Made by a program: the position numbers and the translations under genes
In this document: piece after piece, positions 6,604 through 14,060 of the stretch
Layout: each line of letters starts with the position of its first letter
Numbering within the stretch: position 1 is the stretch's first letter
The notes under the pieces: generated by a model
Databases searched by the model: none
What the model saw: only the letters and a program-made list of their open reading frames with translations
What the model was told of the DNA's origin: nothing
From: an uncultured Gammaproteobacteria bacterium
GTDB lineage: Bacteria; Pseudomonadota; Gammaproteobacteria; GCA-002705445; GCA-002716945
DNA length: 64,000 bases
NCBI GenBank assembly: GCA_913048065.1
Contig: CAJWVG010000001.1
Coordinates: 11,225 to 75,224, forward strand
Direction: 5' to 3'

Positions 6604-7291
6604 AGTAAGGCAAAATAATCCACTGATAATTATTGCCCTTGATTACGATAATGAAACAGATGTACTTGATCTTTGCAATAAATTGAGTCCAGCAGAATGT
6701 AGATTAAAAATTGGTAAACAGCTTTTTACAAAGTATGGACCTGATATAATAGAAAAAATTCATAATCTTGGTTTCGAAATATTTTTAGATTTAAAATTTC
6801 ATGATATACCGACCACAGTCCATAAAGCTTGTTTAGAAGCATATAAGCTGGGTGTTTGGATGTTGAATGTACATTTATTAGGTGGCAAAGATATGATTAT
6901 GGCAGCTAAAGAAGCAAGAGATTCTATAAATCCACAGCTTAATCTGATCGGTGTTACATTATTGACTAGCCATAATCATGATGATTTGAAATACTTTAAT
7001 GCAAACACTAGACAAGAAGTCGTACAAAACCTTTCTGAAATAGCCATTGAATCAGAAATCGATGGAGTAGTATGTTCTCCGGGTGACATCGAAATAATTA
7101 ATAAGCATAAAAATTCTTTAAAATTTATTACACCTGGCATAAGACTTAATGATGTAAGTAATGAGCATGCTAAAACATATACTCCTGAATCTGCTATCAA
7201 TTTAGGTAGTTCTTATTTGGTTATAGGGAGGCCAATTACTGAAGCTAGTGACCCAATGTTAGTAATTAATCAAATTAATTCTAATATTTAA
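6596..7291 (+). CDS. pyrF: orotidine 5'-phosphate decarboxylase
   Basis: IIALDYD and DLKFHDIPTTV motifs. Confidence 0.9.
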   Translation: MNKVRQNNPLIIIALDYDNETDVLDLCNKLSPAECRLKIGKQLFTKYGPDIIEKIHNLGFEIFLDLKFHDIPTTVHKACLEAYKLGVWMLNVHLLGGKDMIMAAKEARDSINPQLNLIGVTLLTSHNHDDLKYFNANTRQEVVQNLSEIAIESEIDGVVCSPGDIEIINKHKNSLKFITPGIRLNDVSNEHAKTYTPESAINLGSSYLVIGRPITEASDPMLVINQINSNI

Positions 7292-8276
7292 AATTCTCTA
7301 ATAAATTTTGGTAGTCTGACTTATTATTAAATTTAGCGCCATATATTTGTATTATTTTTGAAGCAGAAAAATTAGCAAAGCTTAATGATTCTAGAAAATT
7401 TCCATCATCATATTTGTGCATAAATGAACCTAAGAACATATCTCCAGCTCCTGTAAAATCTTTAGAATCTACATCCAAACCTTCAACTTTATAAGTATCA
7501 GTCCCATCGTAACAAATAGCTCCTTTAGAGCCCAATGTTATTATATATATATCTGTAATCTCTTTGAGAAAATTCTGGGCTTGAGATAAATTTGTGGTTT
7601 CGGAAAAATTTAATGCTTCTTGTTCATTACAAAAGATTATATGTGATTTATTATTAAATAGTTTTAATAGATTATCGCGAAAATATTTTACAATATTAGG
7701 ATCCGACAGAGTTATAACTGATTTTGTATTATTTTCTTGAGCAATGGCTAATGCTTCGATACTTACATTCATTGTTTCATCTGATGTTACGAGATAACCT
7801 TCTATTAACAAATACTCCGAATCTTTGATAGATTGATTATCGATATCATCAATACTTAACAAGCTCGATGAACCAAGAAATGTATTCATTGTTCTTTCAT
7901 TATCAGGTGTTATCAATACTAAACATTCGCCACTTTTATTATTATCAAGCTTAGAAATGAATGTTTCTACACCTGATTTGTTAAGACACTCTATAAAGTT
8001 TTTTCCAGACTCATCATCAGAAACCTTTCCAGAGAAACAGACTTTATCATTATACTGAGCCATTGCAAATACAGAATTAGCAACTGAACCACCTGGTATG
8101 ATTTTTTCTGGCGGTCTCATTTTTTTCAAAGACTGATGTAATTTAGAATGTTTATCATACTCATTGAGTAACATGCATCCTTTTTCTAATTCAAGTTCCT
8201 TTAAGACTGAATCATTTACTTTATATTCATAATCTAATAGTGCATTACCAATGCCATATAATTTATATTTTTTCAT
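7281..8276 (-). CDS. PfkB-family carbohydrate/nucleoside kinase (adenosine kinase-like)
   Basis: GGSVANS and DFTGAGDMFLGSF (PfkB signature 2). Confidence 0.75.
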   Translation of the reverse strand: MKKYKLYGIGNALLDYEYKVNDSVLKELELEKGCMLLNEYDKHSKLHQSLKKMRPPEKIIPGGSVANSVFAMAQYNDKVCFSGKVSDDESGKNFIECLNKSGVETFISKLDNNKSGECLVLITPDNERTMNTFLGSSSLLSIDDIDNQSIKDSEYLLIEGYLVTSDETMNVSIEALAIAQENNTKSVITLSDPNIVKYFRDNLLKLFNNKSHIIFCNEQEALNFSETTNLSQAQNFLKEITDIYIITLGSKGAICYDGTDTYKVEGLDVDSKDFTGAGDMFLGSFMHKYDDGNFLESLSFANFSASKIIQIYGAKFNNKSDYQNLLENFKY

Positions 8277-8300
8277 ATTTTATCTCTATAAATAATCTAC

Positions 8301-8354
8301 TACCACTGATCGGACTCGAACCGATACTTTCTTGCGAAAAAGGGATTTTGAATC
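8301..8354 (-). repeat. 54-nt direct repeat: a duplicated 3' half of tRNA-Leu(CAA). It is the distal att-like end of the inserted islet.
   Basis: Identical to 11047-11100 (anticodon loop through the 3' end of the tRNA gene). Identity ends exactly where the tRNA sequence would continue. Confidence 0.85.
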
Positions 8355-8586
8355 ATTTTGAGTAAACTGTATGAATCGCAAACCCTTATATTTATTGACC
8401 TATAGAATAACACAGATAAATGTTTGTGTAATGCTTGTTCTATATTAACAAGCACCAACTTCTTTACCTGTGTATGTCATGTCGCTATAGTTTTATCCAC
8501 AGGCATGGCAGAAAATTTTAGACATGCACATCACAATTTGTTGATGTATGATTATTAAATAAAGAACTACTAAACCATCTTCATAT

Positions 8587-8595
8587 TGTTATAAT
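8587..8595 (+). promoter_or_regulatory. candidate extended -10 promoter element (TGTTATAAT) for the ORF at 8633
   Basis: TGnTATAAT lies 38 nt upstream of the ATG. The -35 region is poor. Confidence 0.25.
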
Positions 8596-8632
8596 TAAAG
8601 AATATCTATAAAAATATTAGTTTAAGCGTATC

Positions 8633-9793
8633 ATGTCTAAGAAAGTTAAAAAGAAAGTTAAAAAAGAACCTACCGCTGATGAGGTTGTCTATGAAAAAGC
8701 CCGGAAGTTCATAAAATCTCTGGGACCTGAAATAGAAGAAAAGTTTAAAAATATTAATGGAAAGACTAATCCAGTAGCTGTTCCAAAAAAACTTTATCCA
8801 GATAGAACACATAGGAGGAACAGAGCTTTAATATCTTGGAAAACGGTTAAAAAAAATAAACTCACCATTAGTCAGCTAAATACTTTCAAAAATGGTATAT
8901 GTGTCGAGTTTATAAATGATGACATCTTGAACGATATTTCTGAACTTGATGAGACGTATAAAGAGTTAAAAAATAGAATTGGTTCAGATGAAAATGTATC
9001 ATCTATTATCACTTTTCGAGTAGAGGATGGAGATCCTGGCGCTACTGTGGCAAGAGAAAGTTTTAAAAAGTTTGAAAGCTTAGAATCTGGAATTGAGTTA
9101 AAAAAAATTGAACGAGTATCAAAAAAAATTCATGTTGATGCTGGTTATGCAAGATTTCCAGGCCAAAAGAACGAGTTCTGGAAAGGAAATGCATACTATG
9201 ATATTAGTGGTGGTAAACAGAAAAAGGATTCAATAAAAAGTCATACAAGTGAAGACAAGCTAAATCTTTTTAATTCGGCTAATGAATATGCAAATGATGT
9301 GGTATGTAATGATTTATACATCACTTTATTTTATTTTTTTATACATTGTCATGATATTGATCAGAAGTTTAATGATAAGTTAGAAGATTTTACTAACATA
9401 AAACAAGAGTGTGAAGACTATCTTAGAACAAGGGATTATGATGAAAATAATCTCTATGAATATTGTATTACGAATCCATGCTTAACTTATAATAAAGGTA
9501 TCTTAACTGACCCTATAGAAGTTAAAAAAATAAGTGTTGATGATTTTAAGGAGCAAAATACTAAAAAACCAGAGCATATAGCGCTATGTCATAATGAGTC
9601 AGCTGATAAACAAATTATAAAATTTGATAAAATTAATGGGTGTATAGTATCAGCCGCGAGACCAACAAATATGTTTTGGATGTATCATACTTCTAACATG
9701 CTTCAACAAAACCATATTCTTGAAGAGTACATTACATTAGAAGCCGAAAGAGTCAATAGGAGGCATAAAATTTTCGAGAAAAACAAAGAATAA
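8633..9793 (+). CDS. hypothetical protein, 386 aa. Candidate restriction endonuclease partner of the adjacent methyltransferase.
   Basis: A long ORF with a Lys-rich N-terminus (KKVKKKVKK) that I cannot place in any family. It converges on the MTase gene with a 1-bp gap inside the tRNA-flanked islet. Confidence 0.6.
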   Translation: MSKKVKKKVKKEPTADEVVYEKARKFIKSLGPEIEEKFKNINGKTNPVAVPKKLYPDRTHRRNRALISWKTVKKNKLTISQLNTFKNGICVEFINDDILNDISELDETYKELKNRIGSDENVSSIITFRVEDGDPGATVARESFKKFESLESGIELKKIERVSKKIHVDAGYARFPGQKNEFWKGNAYYDISGGKQKKDSIKSHTSEDKLNLFNSANEYANDVVCNDLYITLFYFFIHCHDIDQKFNDKLEDFTNIKQECEDYLRTRDYDENNLYEYCITNPCLTYNKGILTDPIEVKKISVDDFKEQNTKKPEHIALCHNESADKQIIKFDKINGCIVSAARPTNMFWMYHTSNMLQQNHILEEYITLEAERVNRRHKIFEKNKE

Positions 9794-9794
9794 T

Positions 9795-11030
9795 TTATAT
9801 ATCCCATTCTTCATATTTTATCTTTTTAAACATATCACCACTTTCTTTATCTAGTTTTTTCTTAATTGCCTTTTTAAACATTTTCTTATTTAATTCTACA
9901 CCTATGCCAATTCTTCCAAGTTCGGCAGCAACTTTGGGCGCAGTAAAACTTCCAGCAAACGGGTCTAGAACCTTTTCTCCAGCATATGTAAACATTTTTA
10001 CTGCCATCTCAGGAATGTCATCAGGAAATGGTGCCGTATGACCTAATGTATTCTCACCTTTTGAGTTAATCTTAATTACAGGAGAGAATTTAATAATATC
10101 TTTTCTCCATTTATTAATTAAAGATTTATCTATCATATTTAAATCACTCTCTCTATCTATAGATTGGGTAAAGTTTGTCTTGAGTGAAAATCTCTTACCT
10201 CTATTTGATTCACTTCGTTCAGGGCAGTTATTATTTTTACATTCCCAACTTTGTAATCCTGGTTCTGTTTGAGTATTACCATTAACTTTTAGTGTCCCAC
10301 ATCTCGGGCACGGGTATCTGGTTAAGTCTAATCTATGTTTATGGAAAATGAGTATATGTTCATATGAATTTATTGGATATTGGTACATTGGAAAAGGTTT
10401 AGAGTCATTCTTATTTCTTTGACTTTGAACCTCACCTTTATCCCAGATTAAATCATCAACAAAAGTGAACCCTTCCTCTTCAAAAATTCTTGTAAAATAT
10501 GCTCCAAGCGGGATCCTTGTTTTACCCCATACCGATTTTGTTTTAGTATTTGGATTATCAAATATATCACCGACATTAAAAACCCATACTCTATGATTGT
10601 CCAAGACACGATAACTTTCTCTGATGATTTCTCTCATATCATCAAGGTATAAATTTATATTATCCCACTGAGAATAATCTCTTGCATTGTAATATGGCGG
10701 GGAAGTTACCATTAATTGTATTGATTCAGAATCCATTAATTTCAGAGCATCCAAACAATTACCCCAAATTAATTTTGTGTTAGATTTTTTATTTTTAAGA
10801 AAAGCATTAAACTTTTTATCAGATAATTTATATTCAGATTGATATTTATGTTTAATTATATCTTGGTATATATCATTGAAGATCTTTATGCAATCTTTTT
10901 GACTGTGAGGATTTTTTTTTGAAAGTTTTTTTATTAAGTCAGCATACTCTTTATCATTAAGCACTTTTTTTAAATATTTAACGCTTGTATGTATTATATT
11001 ATCAAAGTGATTATTGAATCGATTTCTCAT
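9795..11030 (-). CDS. beta-class DNA methyltransferase (N4-cytosine or N6-adenine; the SPPY motif favours N4C) with an inserted Cys4 zinc-ribbon
   Basis: Motif IV is LMVTSPPYYNARDY, N-terminal to motif I VLDPFAGSFTAPKVAAELGRIGIGVELN (the beta permutation). There is a CPRCG...CKNNNCP insert. AGGU lies 9 nt upstream of the ATG. Confidence 0.85.
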   Translation of the reverse strand: MRNRFNNHFDNIIHTSVKYLKKVLNDKEYADLIKKLSKKNPHSQKDCIKIFNDIYQDIIKHKYQSEYKLSDKKFNAFLKNKKSNTKLIWGNCLDALKLMDSESIQLMVTSPPYYNARDYSQWDNINLYLDDMREIIRESYRVLDNHRVWVFNVGDIFDNPNTKTKSVWGKTRIPLGAYFTRIFEEEGFTFVDDLIWDKGEVQSQRNKNDSKPFPMYQYPINSYEHILIFHKHRLDLTRYPCPRCGTLKVNGNTQTEPGLQSWECKNNNCPERSESNRGKRFSLKTNFTQSIDRESDLNMIDKSLINKWRKDIIKFSPVIKINSKGENTLGHTAPFPDDIPEMAVKMFTYAGEKVLDPFAGSFTAPKVAAELGRIGIGVELNKKMFKKAIKKKLDKESGDMFKKIKYEEWDI

Positions 11031-11046
11031 AATTTTTACCTAATAA

Positions 11047-11100
11047 TACCACTGATCGGACTCGAACCGATACTTTCTTGCGAAAAAGGGATTTTGAATC
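11047..11100 (-). repeat. 54-nt direct repeat copy lying inside the intact tRNA-Leu gene (the proximal att-like end)
   Basis: Perfect match to 8301-8354. Confidence 0.85.
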
Positions 11101-11130
11101 CCTCGTGTCTACCAATTCCACCACAGTGGC
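11047..11130 (-). tRNA. tRNA-Leu (anticodon CAA)
   Basis: Cloverleaf with GCCACUG acceptor stem, AAUUGGUAG D-loop, anticodon loop UUCAAAA and a long variable arm. No CCA is encoded. Confidence 0.9.
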
Positions 11131-11173
11131 ATTATAAATTTAGTGTAGCAAACTAATATTTTAGATTCTAATA

Positions 11174-11182
11174 TGGTATAAT
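11174..11182 (+). promoter_or_regulatory. candidate extended -10 (TGGTATAAT) placing a transcription start at or next to the ATG of the 11189 ORF, which would make the mRNA leaderless
   Basis: TGnTATAAT ends 6 nt before the ATG. There is no SD. Confidence 0.25.
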
Positions 11183-11188
11183 TTATTC

Positions 11189-11386
11189 ATGAACTTATCC
11201 ATTTATATCTTAGTAAGCTTAATTTTAATTTTTGCTATATTTTATATTATGAAACAAATTAGGTTAGCTAGAGAAATATCCCTTAAAGATACAACATTGG
11301 AAAAAATTGAAGAAAAGCTTAAAAAACACAAGCTTATAGGCGGTAGACATAAGAGAACAAATAAAAAGAATCCACCTATAATATGA
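11189..11386 (+). CDS. small membrane protein, 65 aa: one transmembrane helix plus a basic C-terminal tail
   Basis: Hydrophobic IYILVSLILIFAIFYIM followed by a K/R-rich tail. Only ORF length and the promoter context support it. Confidence 0.35.
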   Translation: MNLSIYILVSLILIFAIFYIMKQIRLAREISLKDTTLEKIEEKLKKHKLIGGRHKRTNKKNPPII

Positions 11387-11387
11387 T

Positions 11388-11831
11388 TTAGCTGTTGTCT
11401 TCTTTTGCTGTTTTTGCAAGTTTTGCCATCTCTGGACTATAAGCTTCACCTTGCCAGAGCATACTATAGACTATTTCTTCATTCCCATTTTCACAAACAT
11501 CAATTACTTTTTGGAAGAGCGGTTGAAATGTTTTACTTTTATGTGAGTTTTCATGATCATCATACGATTTCCAGAAAGTTATTATAAGAGCTTCACGGTC
11601 TTTCAGTTCTGAGTCTAACGCTTTACCTAACTGACTTCCTTCGTTAGATATTTGACCACTATTTAGTACAACCATACCACCTATGAATCCTGTTTCGGAG
11701 TGATAAGTTTTTACATTTTCACACATCACTGCAACGCGTTCTTGTAGGTCATCAAGAGTATACTCTGGTTTTAAAATAACGCGATTAATTGTGACTATCC
11801 CATCATATGGAAAATTATTTATCAAACTCAT
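11388..11831 (-). CDS. hypothetical protein, possibly ABM/Dabb (ferredoxin-like) fold
   Basis: IITFWKSYDDHENSHKSKTFQ resembles the ABM-domain W-x-S...H..S signature. I am not sure of this. Confidence 0.45.
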   Translation of the reverse strand: MSLINNFPYDGIVTINRVILKPEYTLDDLQERVAVMCENVKTYHSETGFIGGMVVLNSGQISNEGSQLGKALDSELKDREALIITFWKSYDDHENSHKSKTFQPLFQKVIDVCENGNEEIVYSMLWQGEAYSPEMAKLAKTAKEDNS

Positions 11832-11931
11832 ACTCTAATTAAAACAAATAATTTGTAATAAATCAATATAAGTATTTACTAATATACAATTTCATTGACT
11901 TAAACTTTAGACAAGATATTATTTTGCATAC

Positions 11932-14060
<2,129 letters not shown>

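What the first reader, a model, noticed from the sequence alone, without database searches (positions are those of the whole stretch)
9795..11030. Beta-class SPPY methyltransferase with a Cys4 zinc-ribbon insertion, apparently co-transcribed with tRNA-Leu
Motif IV (TSPPY) precedes motif I (VLDPFAGSFTAPK...IGIGVELN), the beta-class order used by N4-cytosine and some N6-adenine MTases. SPPY favours N4C. Motif I reads GSFT rather than GSGTT. This is reminiscent of the non-canonical FGGSNTT of M.PvuII-type N4C enzymes, which is why I do not call it decayed. Between the two motifs sits a CPRCG-x21-CKNNNCP insertion, a zinc ribbon that is not part of the minimal MTase fold and may contribute to DNA recognition or regulation. 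The gene starts 17 nt after the 3' end of tRNA-Leu on the same strand, with an AGGU SD. Read-through from the tRNA promoter is therefore the most economical way it could be expressed. This is an unusual coupling of a defence gene to a tRNA transcript.
Basis: partly seen in the sequence, partly recalled or inferred. Interest (0 to 1): 0.55.

Follow-up and report, generated by a model that had tools for sequence, protein, structure and literature searches.

The report
Two-gene restriction-modification island in tRNA-Leu
The methyltransferase is real, but it sits next to tRNA-Leu because it and a previously unnoticed partner nuclease gene arrived together as a 2.7-kb restriction-modification island that inserted into the tRNA gene and duplicated 54 bases of it.

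Summary
The ORF 9795-11030 (-) is an intact beta-class N6/N4 DNA methyltransferase (PF01555, E 3e-32). It has SPPY, a family-typical DPFAGSFT motif I and four invariant cysteines at the target-recognition position. It lies 15-16 nt downstream of tRNA-Leu(CAA).

- A 54-nt direct repeat (8301-8354 = 11047-11100), running from the tRNA anticodon stem-loop to the discriminator base, brackets a 2,692-bp insert.
- Near-identical marine metagenome contigs carry the empty site, with tRNA-Leu followed directly by pfkB.
- The insert's only other gene, the convergent ORF 8633-9793 (386 aa, no Pfam hit), belongs to a small family. In 71 of 71 informative loci that family lies next to a methyltransferase carrying the same zinc-ribbon module, in every orientation. 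Its model gives DraIII, an HNH restriction enzyme, as the only annotated structural match.

This is therefore a minimal Type II restriction-modification cassette inserted into a tRNA gene, with no integrase. The tRNA adjacency is an insertion scar. Read-through from the tRNA promoter remains the likeliest way M is expressed, as for pfkB at the empty site.

Cassettes of this methyltransferase family are often bracketed by locus-specific long direct repeats (11 of 80 genome loci, P about 1e-5). The insertion route is unresolved: an integrase acting in trans, or recombinase-free "long target duplication". I rate it a new member of known kinds, of moderate interest.

The parts
11047..11130 (-). 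Complete tRNA-Leu(CAA). Its 3' 54 nt form the left copy of the duplication.
   Evidence: ARAGORN (11046-11131); Rfam RF00005 56.4 bits, (11047-11130). The tRNA and the flank beyond it (window 12500..11047) are 99.9% identical to the empty-site contig L081.
11047..11100 (-). Direct-repeat copy 1: tRNA positions about 30 (anticodon stem) to discriminator A73.
   Evidence: the repeat finder D1. The blastn overlap of 54 nt on L081 7923-7976 defines the duplicated target.
11031..11046 (-). Spacer of 15-16 nt between tRNA and the M start codon, with AGGT Shine-Dalgarno at 11041..11038. There is no room for a promoter.
   Evidence: Sequence. No promoter-like or terminator-like site on the minus strand here.
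9795..11030 (-). Beta-class N6/N4 DNA methyltransferase, 411 aa. SPPY codons are at 10703..10692 and motif I DPFAGSFT at 9965..9942.
   Evidence: PF01555 E 3.2e-32; PADLOC MTase_II E 1.7e-85. Foldseek: TTHA0409 E 2.4e-16 with TM-score 0.85 relative to the target, then the rotifer N4-cytosine methyltransferase, M.RsrI and CcrM. 2,273 homologues at E<=1e-20.
10224..10310 (-). Cys4 zinc-ribbon codons (C241, C244, C264, C269), followed by the invariant NRGKRFS. The insert lies between motif VIII and motif X, the target-recognition position.
   Evidence: Invariant in alignment A1. The same module sits in the N-terminal region of the 692-aa methyltransferases that pair with distant ORF386 relatives. 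The AF2 model is low-confidence here.
8633..9793 (+). Candidate restriction endonuclease, 386 aa, convergent with M (stop codons 1 nt apart). [quoted passage not shown]
   Evidence: No Pfam, NCBIfam, PADLOC or PDB sequence hit. AF2 pLDDT 89.7. Best PDB fold hit is 4L0K, DraIII, E 8.6e-3, probability 1.0. In 71 of 71 informative loci it is adjacent to a zinc-ribbon PF01555 methyltransferase. A controller-like HTH_3 ORF lies upstream in L092/L093.
8355..8632 (+). Non-coding arm of the insert, upstream of the nuclease gene. It carries an extended -10 element TGTTATAAT at 8587-8595, 37 nt before the ATG.
   Evidence: Sequence. Pattern count: 13 sites in the window against 11 expected, so support is weak. 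The arm is 100% identical in seven other island-bearing contigs.
8301..8354 (-). Direct-repeat copy 2: the displaced 3' part of tRNA-Leu, lying next to pfkB.
   Evidence: the repeat finder D1. Window 8354..7001 aligns to L081 7923..9276.
7281..8276 (-). Host pfkB-family kinase. At the empty site it is the gene immediately downstream of tRNA-Leu (23-24 nt).
   Evidence: PF00294 and gene tables; L081 sequence.

Best explanation
The ORF is the modification half of a minimal Type II restriction-modification cassette. The cassette is a 2,692-bp insert (window 8355-11046) holding only two genes.

The first gene is the beta-class methyltransferase. A Cys4 zinc ribbon plus an RGKRF module occupies its target-recognition position. 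The second is a convergent 386-aa protein that most likely is the cognate endonuclease, with a zinc-less beta-beta-alpha-metal (H-N-N) active site.

The cassette inserted into the 3' part of tRNA-Leu(CAA). It duplicated the 54 nt from the anticodon stem-loop to the discriminator base. The tRNA therefore stays intact on one side, and a tRNA fragment is left next to pfkB on the other.

As a result M starts 15-16 nt after the tRNA, in the slot that pfkB occupies at the empty site. M is probably transcribed by read-through from the tRNA-Leu promoter. The nuclease gene probably uses its own promoter in the 278-nt arm.

Shown: the insertion, the duplication, the empty site, the methyltransferase family and fold, and the conserved linkage of the two gene families. 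Inferred: nuclease activity, read-through transcription and base specificity (N4-C is suggested by SPPY).

The insertion route is not settled. It could be a tRNA-specific integrase acting in trans or since lost. It could also be the recombinase-free 'insertion with long target duplication' described for restriction-modification units. I consider the two about equally likely.
For: - Insertion: the 54-nt repeat. Five independent contigs more than 99% identical to both flanks have tRNA-Leu followed directly by pfkB, and the two alignments overlap by exactly 54 nt. The identical island sits at the same site in other metagenomes.
- Methyltransferase.
- Nuclease candidate: of 80 metagenome loci with ORF386 relatives, 71 have an adjacent methyltransferase carrying the same zinc-ribbon module and the other 9 contigs are too short to tell. 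Orientations are convergent 42, divergent 6 and collinear 23. The same holds for 35 of 48 viral loci. A controller-like HTH_3 ORF sits upstream in L092/L093.
- Nuclease fold: DraIII is the top PDB fold match and the only annotated fold match in either library. H320, N346 and N355 are invariant, with H320 at the end of a predicted strand and N355 in the following helix.
- No integrase: the insert has two ORFs. No integrase-family hit appears within 8 kb on either side (gene table).
- Family-wide pattern: in 11 of 80 genome loci the methyltransferase cassette is tightly bracketed by locus-specific 37-150-nt direct repeats, against 3.1 expected, P about 1.5e-5. One of these duplicates the 3' end of tRNA-Val (L033).
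Against: - No activity data exist for either protein.
- The DraIII match is weak (E 8.6e-3; TM-score 0.24 relative to the query and 0.43 relative to DraIII), and residue-level superposition could not be inspected.
- ORF386 lacks the Cys/His zinc sites common in HNH restriction enzymes and hits no HNH profile.
- The AF2 model does not resolve the zinc ribbon (pLDDT 43-77).
- Read-through is inferred only from spacing and consensus scans.
- The repeat boundaries coincide exactly with a classic integrase att site in a tRNA, yet no integrase was found, so the insertion mechanism is open.
- Island composition (GC 0.30-0.32) does not differ from the flanks.
Confidence: 0.82

Rival explanations
1. 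One reading: a stand-alone defence or orphan methyltransferase whose placement behind tRNA-Leu is an evolved regulatory coupling to the tRNA transcript.
For: Same strand, a 15-16-nt gap, a Shine-Dalgarno, and no intervening promoter or terminator.
Against: The gene arrived with a partner gene on an insert that near-identical genomes lack. At the empty site pfkB has the same tight position behind the tRNA. Homologues are rarely near tRNAs: 10 of 80 loci have one within 3.5 kb, and the nearest is 70 nt away on the opposite strand. Most relatives have a candidate nuclease gene next to them.
Confidence: 0.04
2. The insertion was made by a tyrosine integrase specific for tRNA-Leu(CAA). The cassette is either a decayed remnant of a larger island that lost its integrase, or a cis-mobilisable element moved in trans.
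For: The duplicated block runs exactly from the anticodon stem-loop to the discriminator base. Furuta et al. 2010 describe this as the usual integrase target in tRNAs (PMC2853133). A different insert sits in the same anticodon loop in L085, so the site is a hot spot. L033 duplicates the T-arm-to-3'-end segment of tRNA-Val. Streamlined marine genomes are known to carry islands and partial tRNAs at tRNA genes, as with tycheposons (10.1101/2020.12.28.424599).
Against: There is no integrase in the insert, none within 8 kb on either side, and none next to the two other tRNAs of the window. Ten other cassettes of this family are bracketed by unrelated, non-tRNA repeats and also have no room for an integrase. 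This route would need many different integrases acting in trans.
Confidence: 0.42
3. Recombinase-free insertion, the 'insertion with long target duplication' of Nobusato and Kobayashi. One version is Campbell-type single crossover of a circular cassette that carries a short host fragment. Another is staggered breaks 54 nt apart followed by fill-in.
For: The case meets all operational criteria of Furuta et al. 2010: R and M in the insert, insert under 20 kb, duplication over 30 bp, no mobility gene, and repeats that align to one copy in the empty genome. Bracketing by locus-specific repeats is enriched across the family (11 observed against 3.1 expected). The two copies are 100% identical.
Against: The boundaries match a tRNA att site too neatly for an unspecific process. 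The mechanism of such insertions has never been demonstrated. Empty-site counterparts for the other bracketed loci were not available.
Confidence: 0.4
4. ORF386 is not a nuclease. It could be a DNA-binding regulator or specificity factor, in which case the methyltransferase is effectively orphan.
For: No sequence-profile hit to any nuclease family. The structural hit is weak.
Against: Obligate, orientation-independent linkage to a methyltransferase is the signature of restriction-modification pairs. A controller-like HTH ORF lies upstream in some loci. The only annotated structural match is a restriction enzyme. The H...N...N residues are invariant in a predicted strand-strand-helix context.
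Confidence: 0.12

Closest known systems
Beta-class N6-adenine/N4-cytosine DNA methyltransferases (PF01555): TTHA0409, M.RsrI, M.PvuII, M.MboIIA, rotifer N4CMT
   Same: Motif order IV (SPPY) then X then I. Same fold: Foldseek E 2e-16 to 1.6e-10; sequence hits.
   Different: About 80 extra residues sit at the target-recognition position, with an invariant Cys4 ribbon and an NRGKRFS motif. Motif I is GSFT instead of GSGT. There is also an N-terminal helical domain of about 80 residues. Specificity is unknown.
DraIII (PDB 4L0K), an HNH/beta-beta-alpha-metal Type IIP restriction enzyme
   Same: It is the best PDB structural match and the only annotated structural match to the ORF386 model. Both have a catalytic His at the end of strand 1 and an Asn metal ligand in the following helix (DraIII H183 and N202, PMC3996161; ORF386 H320 and N355, inferred).
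   Different: ORF386 is 386 aa against 227 aa. It has no Cys/His zinc sites and no detectable sequence similarity. The match covers about 170 residues at a TM-score of 0.43 relative to DraIII.
Restriction-modification units inserted with long target duplication (H. pylori, H. influenzae and others; Furuta, Abe and Kobayashi 2010, PMC2853133)
   Same: An insert holding only R and M, bracketed by a 54-bp duplication of a sequence that is single-copy at the empty site, with no mobility gene.
   Different: Here the duplicated target is exactly the anticodon-loop-to-3'-end block of a tRNA. That paper treats such a block as the hallmark of integrase-mediated events.
Restriction-modification genes plus an integrase inserted in tRNA genes (X. 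fastidiosa, V. vulnificus and T. thermophilus cases in PMC2853133), and tRNA-targeting marine islands (tycheposons)
   Same: The tRNA 3' part is duplicated, the insert is polymorphic between close relatives, the site is a hot spot (L085), and the host is a streamlined marine genome.
   Different: No integrase or replication module is present. The island is only 2.7 kb.

Membership tests
Beta-class N6/N4 amino-methyltransferase (PF01555) | Profile match above the curated threshold | tested here: met
   112.7 bits against 26.7, aa 104-388.
Beta-class N6/N4 amino-methyltransferase (PF01555) | Circular permutation: motif IV (D/N/S)PP(Y/F) lies N-terminal to motif X and motif I, with the target-recognition domain between VIII and X | tested here: met
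   SPPY is at 110-113, HTAPFP at 331-336 and DPFAGSFT at 356-363, with the insert at about 235-316.
Beta-class N6/N4 amino-methyltransferase (PF01555) | Methyltransferase fold | tested here: met
   Foldseek TTHA0409 E 2.4e-16, TM-score 0.85 relative to the target. The core of the model is confident.
N4-cytosine-specific subgroup | Methylation of cytosine N4 at a defined site | not testable with these tools
   SPPY is typical of N4-C enzymes (own knowledge), but PDB neighbours include both N4-C and N6-A enzymes.
Type II restriction-modification system | Methyltransferase gene adjacent to a separate endonuclease gene, with linkage conserved across taxa regardless of orientation | tested here: met
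   71 of 71 informative metagenome loci; 35 of 48 viral loci.
Type II restriction-modification system | Site-specific DNA cleavage that is blocked by the cognate methylation | not testable with these tools
   Needs biochemistry.
HNH / beta-beta-alpha-metal nucleases | Strand-strand-helix motif with a catalytic His at the end of strand 1 and an Asn/His metal ligand in the helix | tested here: inconclusive
   Invariant H320 lies at the end of strand 316-320, N346 follows, and N355 lies in helix 352-358. DraIII is the top PDB fold match at E 8.6e-3. Coordinates could not be inspected.
HNH / beta-beta-alpha-metal nucleases | Sequence-profile match to an HNH family, or CxxC zinc sites flanking the motif | tested here: not met
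   No Pfam, NCBIfam, PADLOC or PDB hit. There are no conserved cysteines.
Integrase-type tRNA-integrating genomic island | Direct repeats made of the tRNA 3' part, an intact tRNA at one end, and an empty site in relatives | tested here: met
Integrase-type tRNA-integrating genomic island | A tyrosine or serine recombinase gene inside the island | tested here: not met
   The 2,692 bp contain only M and ORF386. No integrase-family hit appears within 8 kb.
Restriction-modification insertion with long target duplication (criteria of PMC2853133) | R and M in the insert, insert under 20 kb, duplication over 30 bp, no mobility gene, repeats aligning to one copy in the empty genome | tested here: met
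   Insert of 2,692 bp and a 54-bp duplication. R is putative.
tRNA-mRNA co-transcription unit | A transcript that spans the tRNA and the downstream ORF | not testable with these tools
   Only indirect evidence: a 15-16-nt gap and no promoter-like or terminator-like site. pfkB occupies the same position at the empty site.

The most novel reading that the evidence does not exclude
This two-gene cassette, and its many relatives bracketed by locus-specific long repeats, is a self-sufficient mobile unit that needs no recombinase. It would carry or create a short copy of a host gene end, here the conserved 3' half of a tRNA. It would then insert either by homology or by staggered cuts made by its own HNH nuclease. 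Giant viruses and phages that carry the same gene pair would act as vehicles.
Probability: 0.2. Interest if true: 0.7.

Novelty: new member of a known kind. Interest (0 to 1): 0.4.

Why it matters
The finding changes from "odd tRNA-coupled methyltransferase" to a clean natural example of a minimal restriction-modification island, with occupied and empty alleles coexisting in wild marine populations.

It nominates an uncharacterised endonuclease family: about 170 clusters at 50% identity, with no Pfam model, found in bacteria, archaea and giant-virus contigs.

It points to a portable zinc-ribbon/RGKRF module as the recognition element of a very conserved methyltransferase family.

It adds a tRNA-targeted, integrase-less case, plus ten further bracketed loci, to the unresolved question of how restriction-modification units move on their own.

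Tried and rejected
- ORF386 gave nothing against Pfam, NCBIfam, PADLOC, PDB sequences (single sequence and profile), plasmids or phages. PHROGs gave only a weak 'carboxypeptidase' hit.
- The search of predicted viral protein structures (BFVD) gave only uncharacterised cyanophage proteins.
- AF2 did not model the zinc ribbon with confidence.
- The look-up of the Aciduliprofundum homologue and a literature search for its locus tags failed.
- The marine methylome paper gave no assignable motif. The recognition site could not be inferred.
- The integrase search was negative: none in the island, none within 8 kb, and none beside tRNA-Asn or tRNA-Val in the window. The rest of the window was not scanned exhaustively.
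- The island arm was absent from viral contigs.
- An apparent similarity between the island arm and the L085 insert is only marginal (z about 3.9).
- GC content does not mark the island.
- Among the relatives with a tRNA nearby, only L033 duplicates part of it.

Full report
**Observation.** The ORF at 9795..11030 (-) is real: 411 aa with an ATG start. tRNA-Leu(CAA) lies just upstream on the same strand (ARAGORN 11046-11131; Rfam 11047-11130). The gap to the ATG is 15-16 nt rather than 17. An AGGT Shine-Dalgarno sits 7 nt before the ATG. TSPPY (109-113) precedes DPFAGSFT (356-363). The cysteine element is CPRCG-x18-CKNNNCP, not x21.

**The methyltransferase.**
- Pfam PF01555 scores 112.7 bits against a cut-off of 26.7. 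PADLOC calls it a Type II methyltransferase at E 1.7e-85.
- PDB sequence hits are TTHA0409, the rotifer N4-cytosine methyltransferase, M.MboIIA, M.RsrI and M.PvuII.
- The AF2 model (pLDDT 74, core confident) matches TTHA0409 at E 2.4e-16, with a TM-score of 0.85 relative to the target.
- The family is large and very conserved: 2,273 proteins at E<=1e-20, with 55-83% identity across bacterial phyla and archaea.
- In a 25-sequence alignment, SPPY, all four cysteines and NRGKRFS are invariant, and GSFT is the family norm. The enzyme is therefore not decayed.
- The insert lies between motif VIII and motif X, which is the target-recognition position of beta-class enzymes (established motif order). 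The model does not resolve the ribbon (pLDDT 43-77).

**The surroundings change the picture.** A 57-nt direct repeat, 54 nt of it exact, joins 8301-8354 to 11047-11100. The repeated block is the tRNA from position about 30 in the anticodon stem to the discriminator A73.

I looked up the exact pfkB protein (7281-8276) in public assemblies. Five contigs (L081-L084, L086) are more than 99% identical to both flanks, and in them tRNA-Leu is followed after 23-24 nt by pfkB. Window 12500..11047 aligns to L081 6523..7976, and window 8354..7001 aligns to L081 7923..9276. The overlap is exactly 54 nt.

The segment 8355-11046 (2,692 bp) is therefore an insertion with a 54-bp target duplication. The identical island occupies the same site in several Tara Oceans and other marine metagenome contigs. 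The host is a marine MAG labelled Gammaproteobacteria. GC content does not set the island apart.

**The second gene.** The insert holds one other gene, 8633..9793 (+), 386 aa. It is convergent with M, and the stop codons are 1 nt apart.
- It has no hit in Pfam, NCBIfam, PADLOC, PDB sequences, plasmids or phages.
- It belongs to a small, closed family: 144 hits in the indexed search and 173 clusters at 50% identity in 1.84 billion proteins.
- Of 80 metagenome loci encoding relatives, 71 have an adjacent PF01555 methyltransferase of the zinc-ribbon type, and the other 9 contigs are too short to tell. Orientations are convergent 42, divergent 6 and collinear 23.
- Distant relatives pair with a 692-aa methyltransferase. 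It carries the same CxxC...CxxxxC...RGKRF module, but in an N-terminal region away from the catalytic domain. The module therefore travels with this nuclease family, which fits a role in recognising the shared site.
- In L092/L093 an 87-aa HTH_3 ORF sits directly upstream, like a controller protein.
- The AF2 model is confident (pLDDT 89.7). Its best PDB match, and the only annotated one, is 4L0K (E 8.6e-3, probability 1.0). This is DraIII, an HNH/beta-beta-alpha-metal restriction enzyme with catalytic H183 and N202 (PMC3996161).
- In ORF386 the invariant H320 ends strand 316-320. The invariant N346 follows, and the invariant N355 lies in helix 352-358. This gives an H-N-N arrangement with the canonical 9-residue N-to-N spacing, but without zinc sites.

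I conclude, by inference, that ORF386 is the restriction endonuclease.

**Partners of the methyltransferase family.** Among 80 genome loci with close relatives of M:
- 63 have a roughly 245-aa protein with zinc-ribbon-like hits next to it;
- 3 have an ORF386 relative;
- 2 have a gene with a Pfam BstXI-family hit next to it (a later tblastn check found 3 such loci).

One methyltransferase scaffold therefore serves several nuclease families.

**Expression.**
- There is no room for a promoter between the tRNA and M, and the scan found no promoter-like or terminator-like site there.
- At the empty site pfkB occupies the same position behind the tRNA, so read-through from the tRNA promoter appears to be the native arrangement of the locus. 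M inherited it.
- The nuclease gene has an extended -10 element (TGTTATAAT, 8587-8595) 37 nt upstream. Support is weak, because such sites are as common in the window as expected by chance.
- If the insert were ever circular, M and R would be divergent across a 347-nt region containing the 54-nt core. Insertion would then separate M from that region and place it behind the tRNA. This is speculation.

**How it got there.** The insert has no recombinase. None lies within 8 kb or beside the other two tRNAs in the window.

Two routes fit the evidence.

(a) Integrase-type recombination in trans, or with later loss of the integrase.
- The duplicated block is exactly the anticodon-loop-to-3'-end segment that tRNA-specific integrases use (PMC2853133).
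- L085 carries a different 1.4-kb insert in the same anticodon loop.
- L033 duplicates the 3' 22 nt of tRNA-Val around a cassette from the same methyltransferase family.

(b) 'Insertion with long target duplication', as described for restriction-modification units without mobility genes.
- The case meets all of that paper's criteria.
- Across the family, 11 of 21 direct-repeat pairs bracket the methyltransferase cassette, against 3.1 expected (P about 1.5e-5, approximate null model).
- The repeats are unrelated between loci. They include gene 3' ends and terminators.
- Two ORF386-family loci, L140 and L175, show the same bracketing.

I cannot discriminate between the routes and weight them about equally.

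**Comparison and novelty.** The methyltransferase is a member of PF01555. The pair behaves as a Type II restriction-modification system. The nuclease resembles HNH enzymes structurally but fails sequence-based membership. The island meets the repeat and empty-site criteria of tRNA islands but lacks the integrase.

Each element belongs to a known kind. What is new is the specific combination: an unannotated nuclease family, the permuted zinc-ribbon module, and an integrase-less island in a tRNA. I rate it a new member of known kinds, with moderate interest (0.4).

Noticed in passing
L085:300-1800 (JGI 3300020475 contig; pfkB identical to window 7281-8276): A different insert of about 1.4 kb sits at the same tRNA-Leu. 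The host tRNA is split in the anticodon loop (5' part at 312-344, 3' part at 1750-1800, overlap TCA). The insert brings its own complete tRNA-Leu(CAA), 79% identical (474-559), plus a UDG-like ORF and a MORN-repeat ORF. This tRNA is an insertion hot spot.
   Followed up: partly
window 8364-8407 compared with L085:346-389: There is weak similarity (local score z about 3.9 against shuffles) between the island arm and the L085 insert. In both, the similar stretch lies directly beside the anticodon-loop junction. It may be a shared att arm or chance in AT-rich DNA.
   Followed up: partly
L184-L231 (IMG/VR viral contigs), for example L219:5704-8234: Of 48 viral loci with the methyltransferase homologue (50-56% identity), 35 also carry a convergent full-length ORF386 homologue (24-32% identity). 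L219 has an NCLDV major capsid gene 2 kb away, and several contigs are giant-virus MAGs. The same restriction-modification pair therefore occurs in giant-virus genomes.
   Followed up: partly
Proteins P0233, P0235, P0236, P0239: These close methyltransferase homologues (63-64% identity) are fused to a LexA-like N-terminus (Peptidase_S24, PF00717). Three of the four (P0235, P0236, P0239) also have the LexA DNA-binding domain PF01726. This suggests SOS-linked or self-cleaving control in some relatives.
   Followed up: no
L001, L006, L018, L033, L036, L049, L051, L054, L064, L066, L070 (genome loci); L140, L175: Methyltransferase-plus-partner cassettes are tightly bracketed by locus-specific direct repeats of 37-150 nt, 1.4-3.8 kb apart (4.0-4.3 kb in L140 and L175). 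There is no room for a recombinase. In L036 the repeat is the 3' end of the upstream gene, up to its stop codon.
   Followed up: partly
L092:5156-7234 and L091:5134-7218: In these 692-aa methyltransferases the zinc-ribbon/RGKRF module sits in an N-terminal region that also resembles the strand before the insert (ILIYKKIELD against ILIFHKHRLD). The long form may have arisen by duplication or permutation of the short one.
   Followed up: partly
window 11189-11386 (+) and 11388-11831 (-): Two small host ORFs (65 and 147 aa, no Pfam hit) lie between tRNA-Leu and queA. They are present at both empty and occupied sites. The 65-aa ORF has an extended -10 element (TGGTATAAT, 11174-11182) just upstream.
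   Followed up: no
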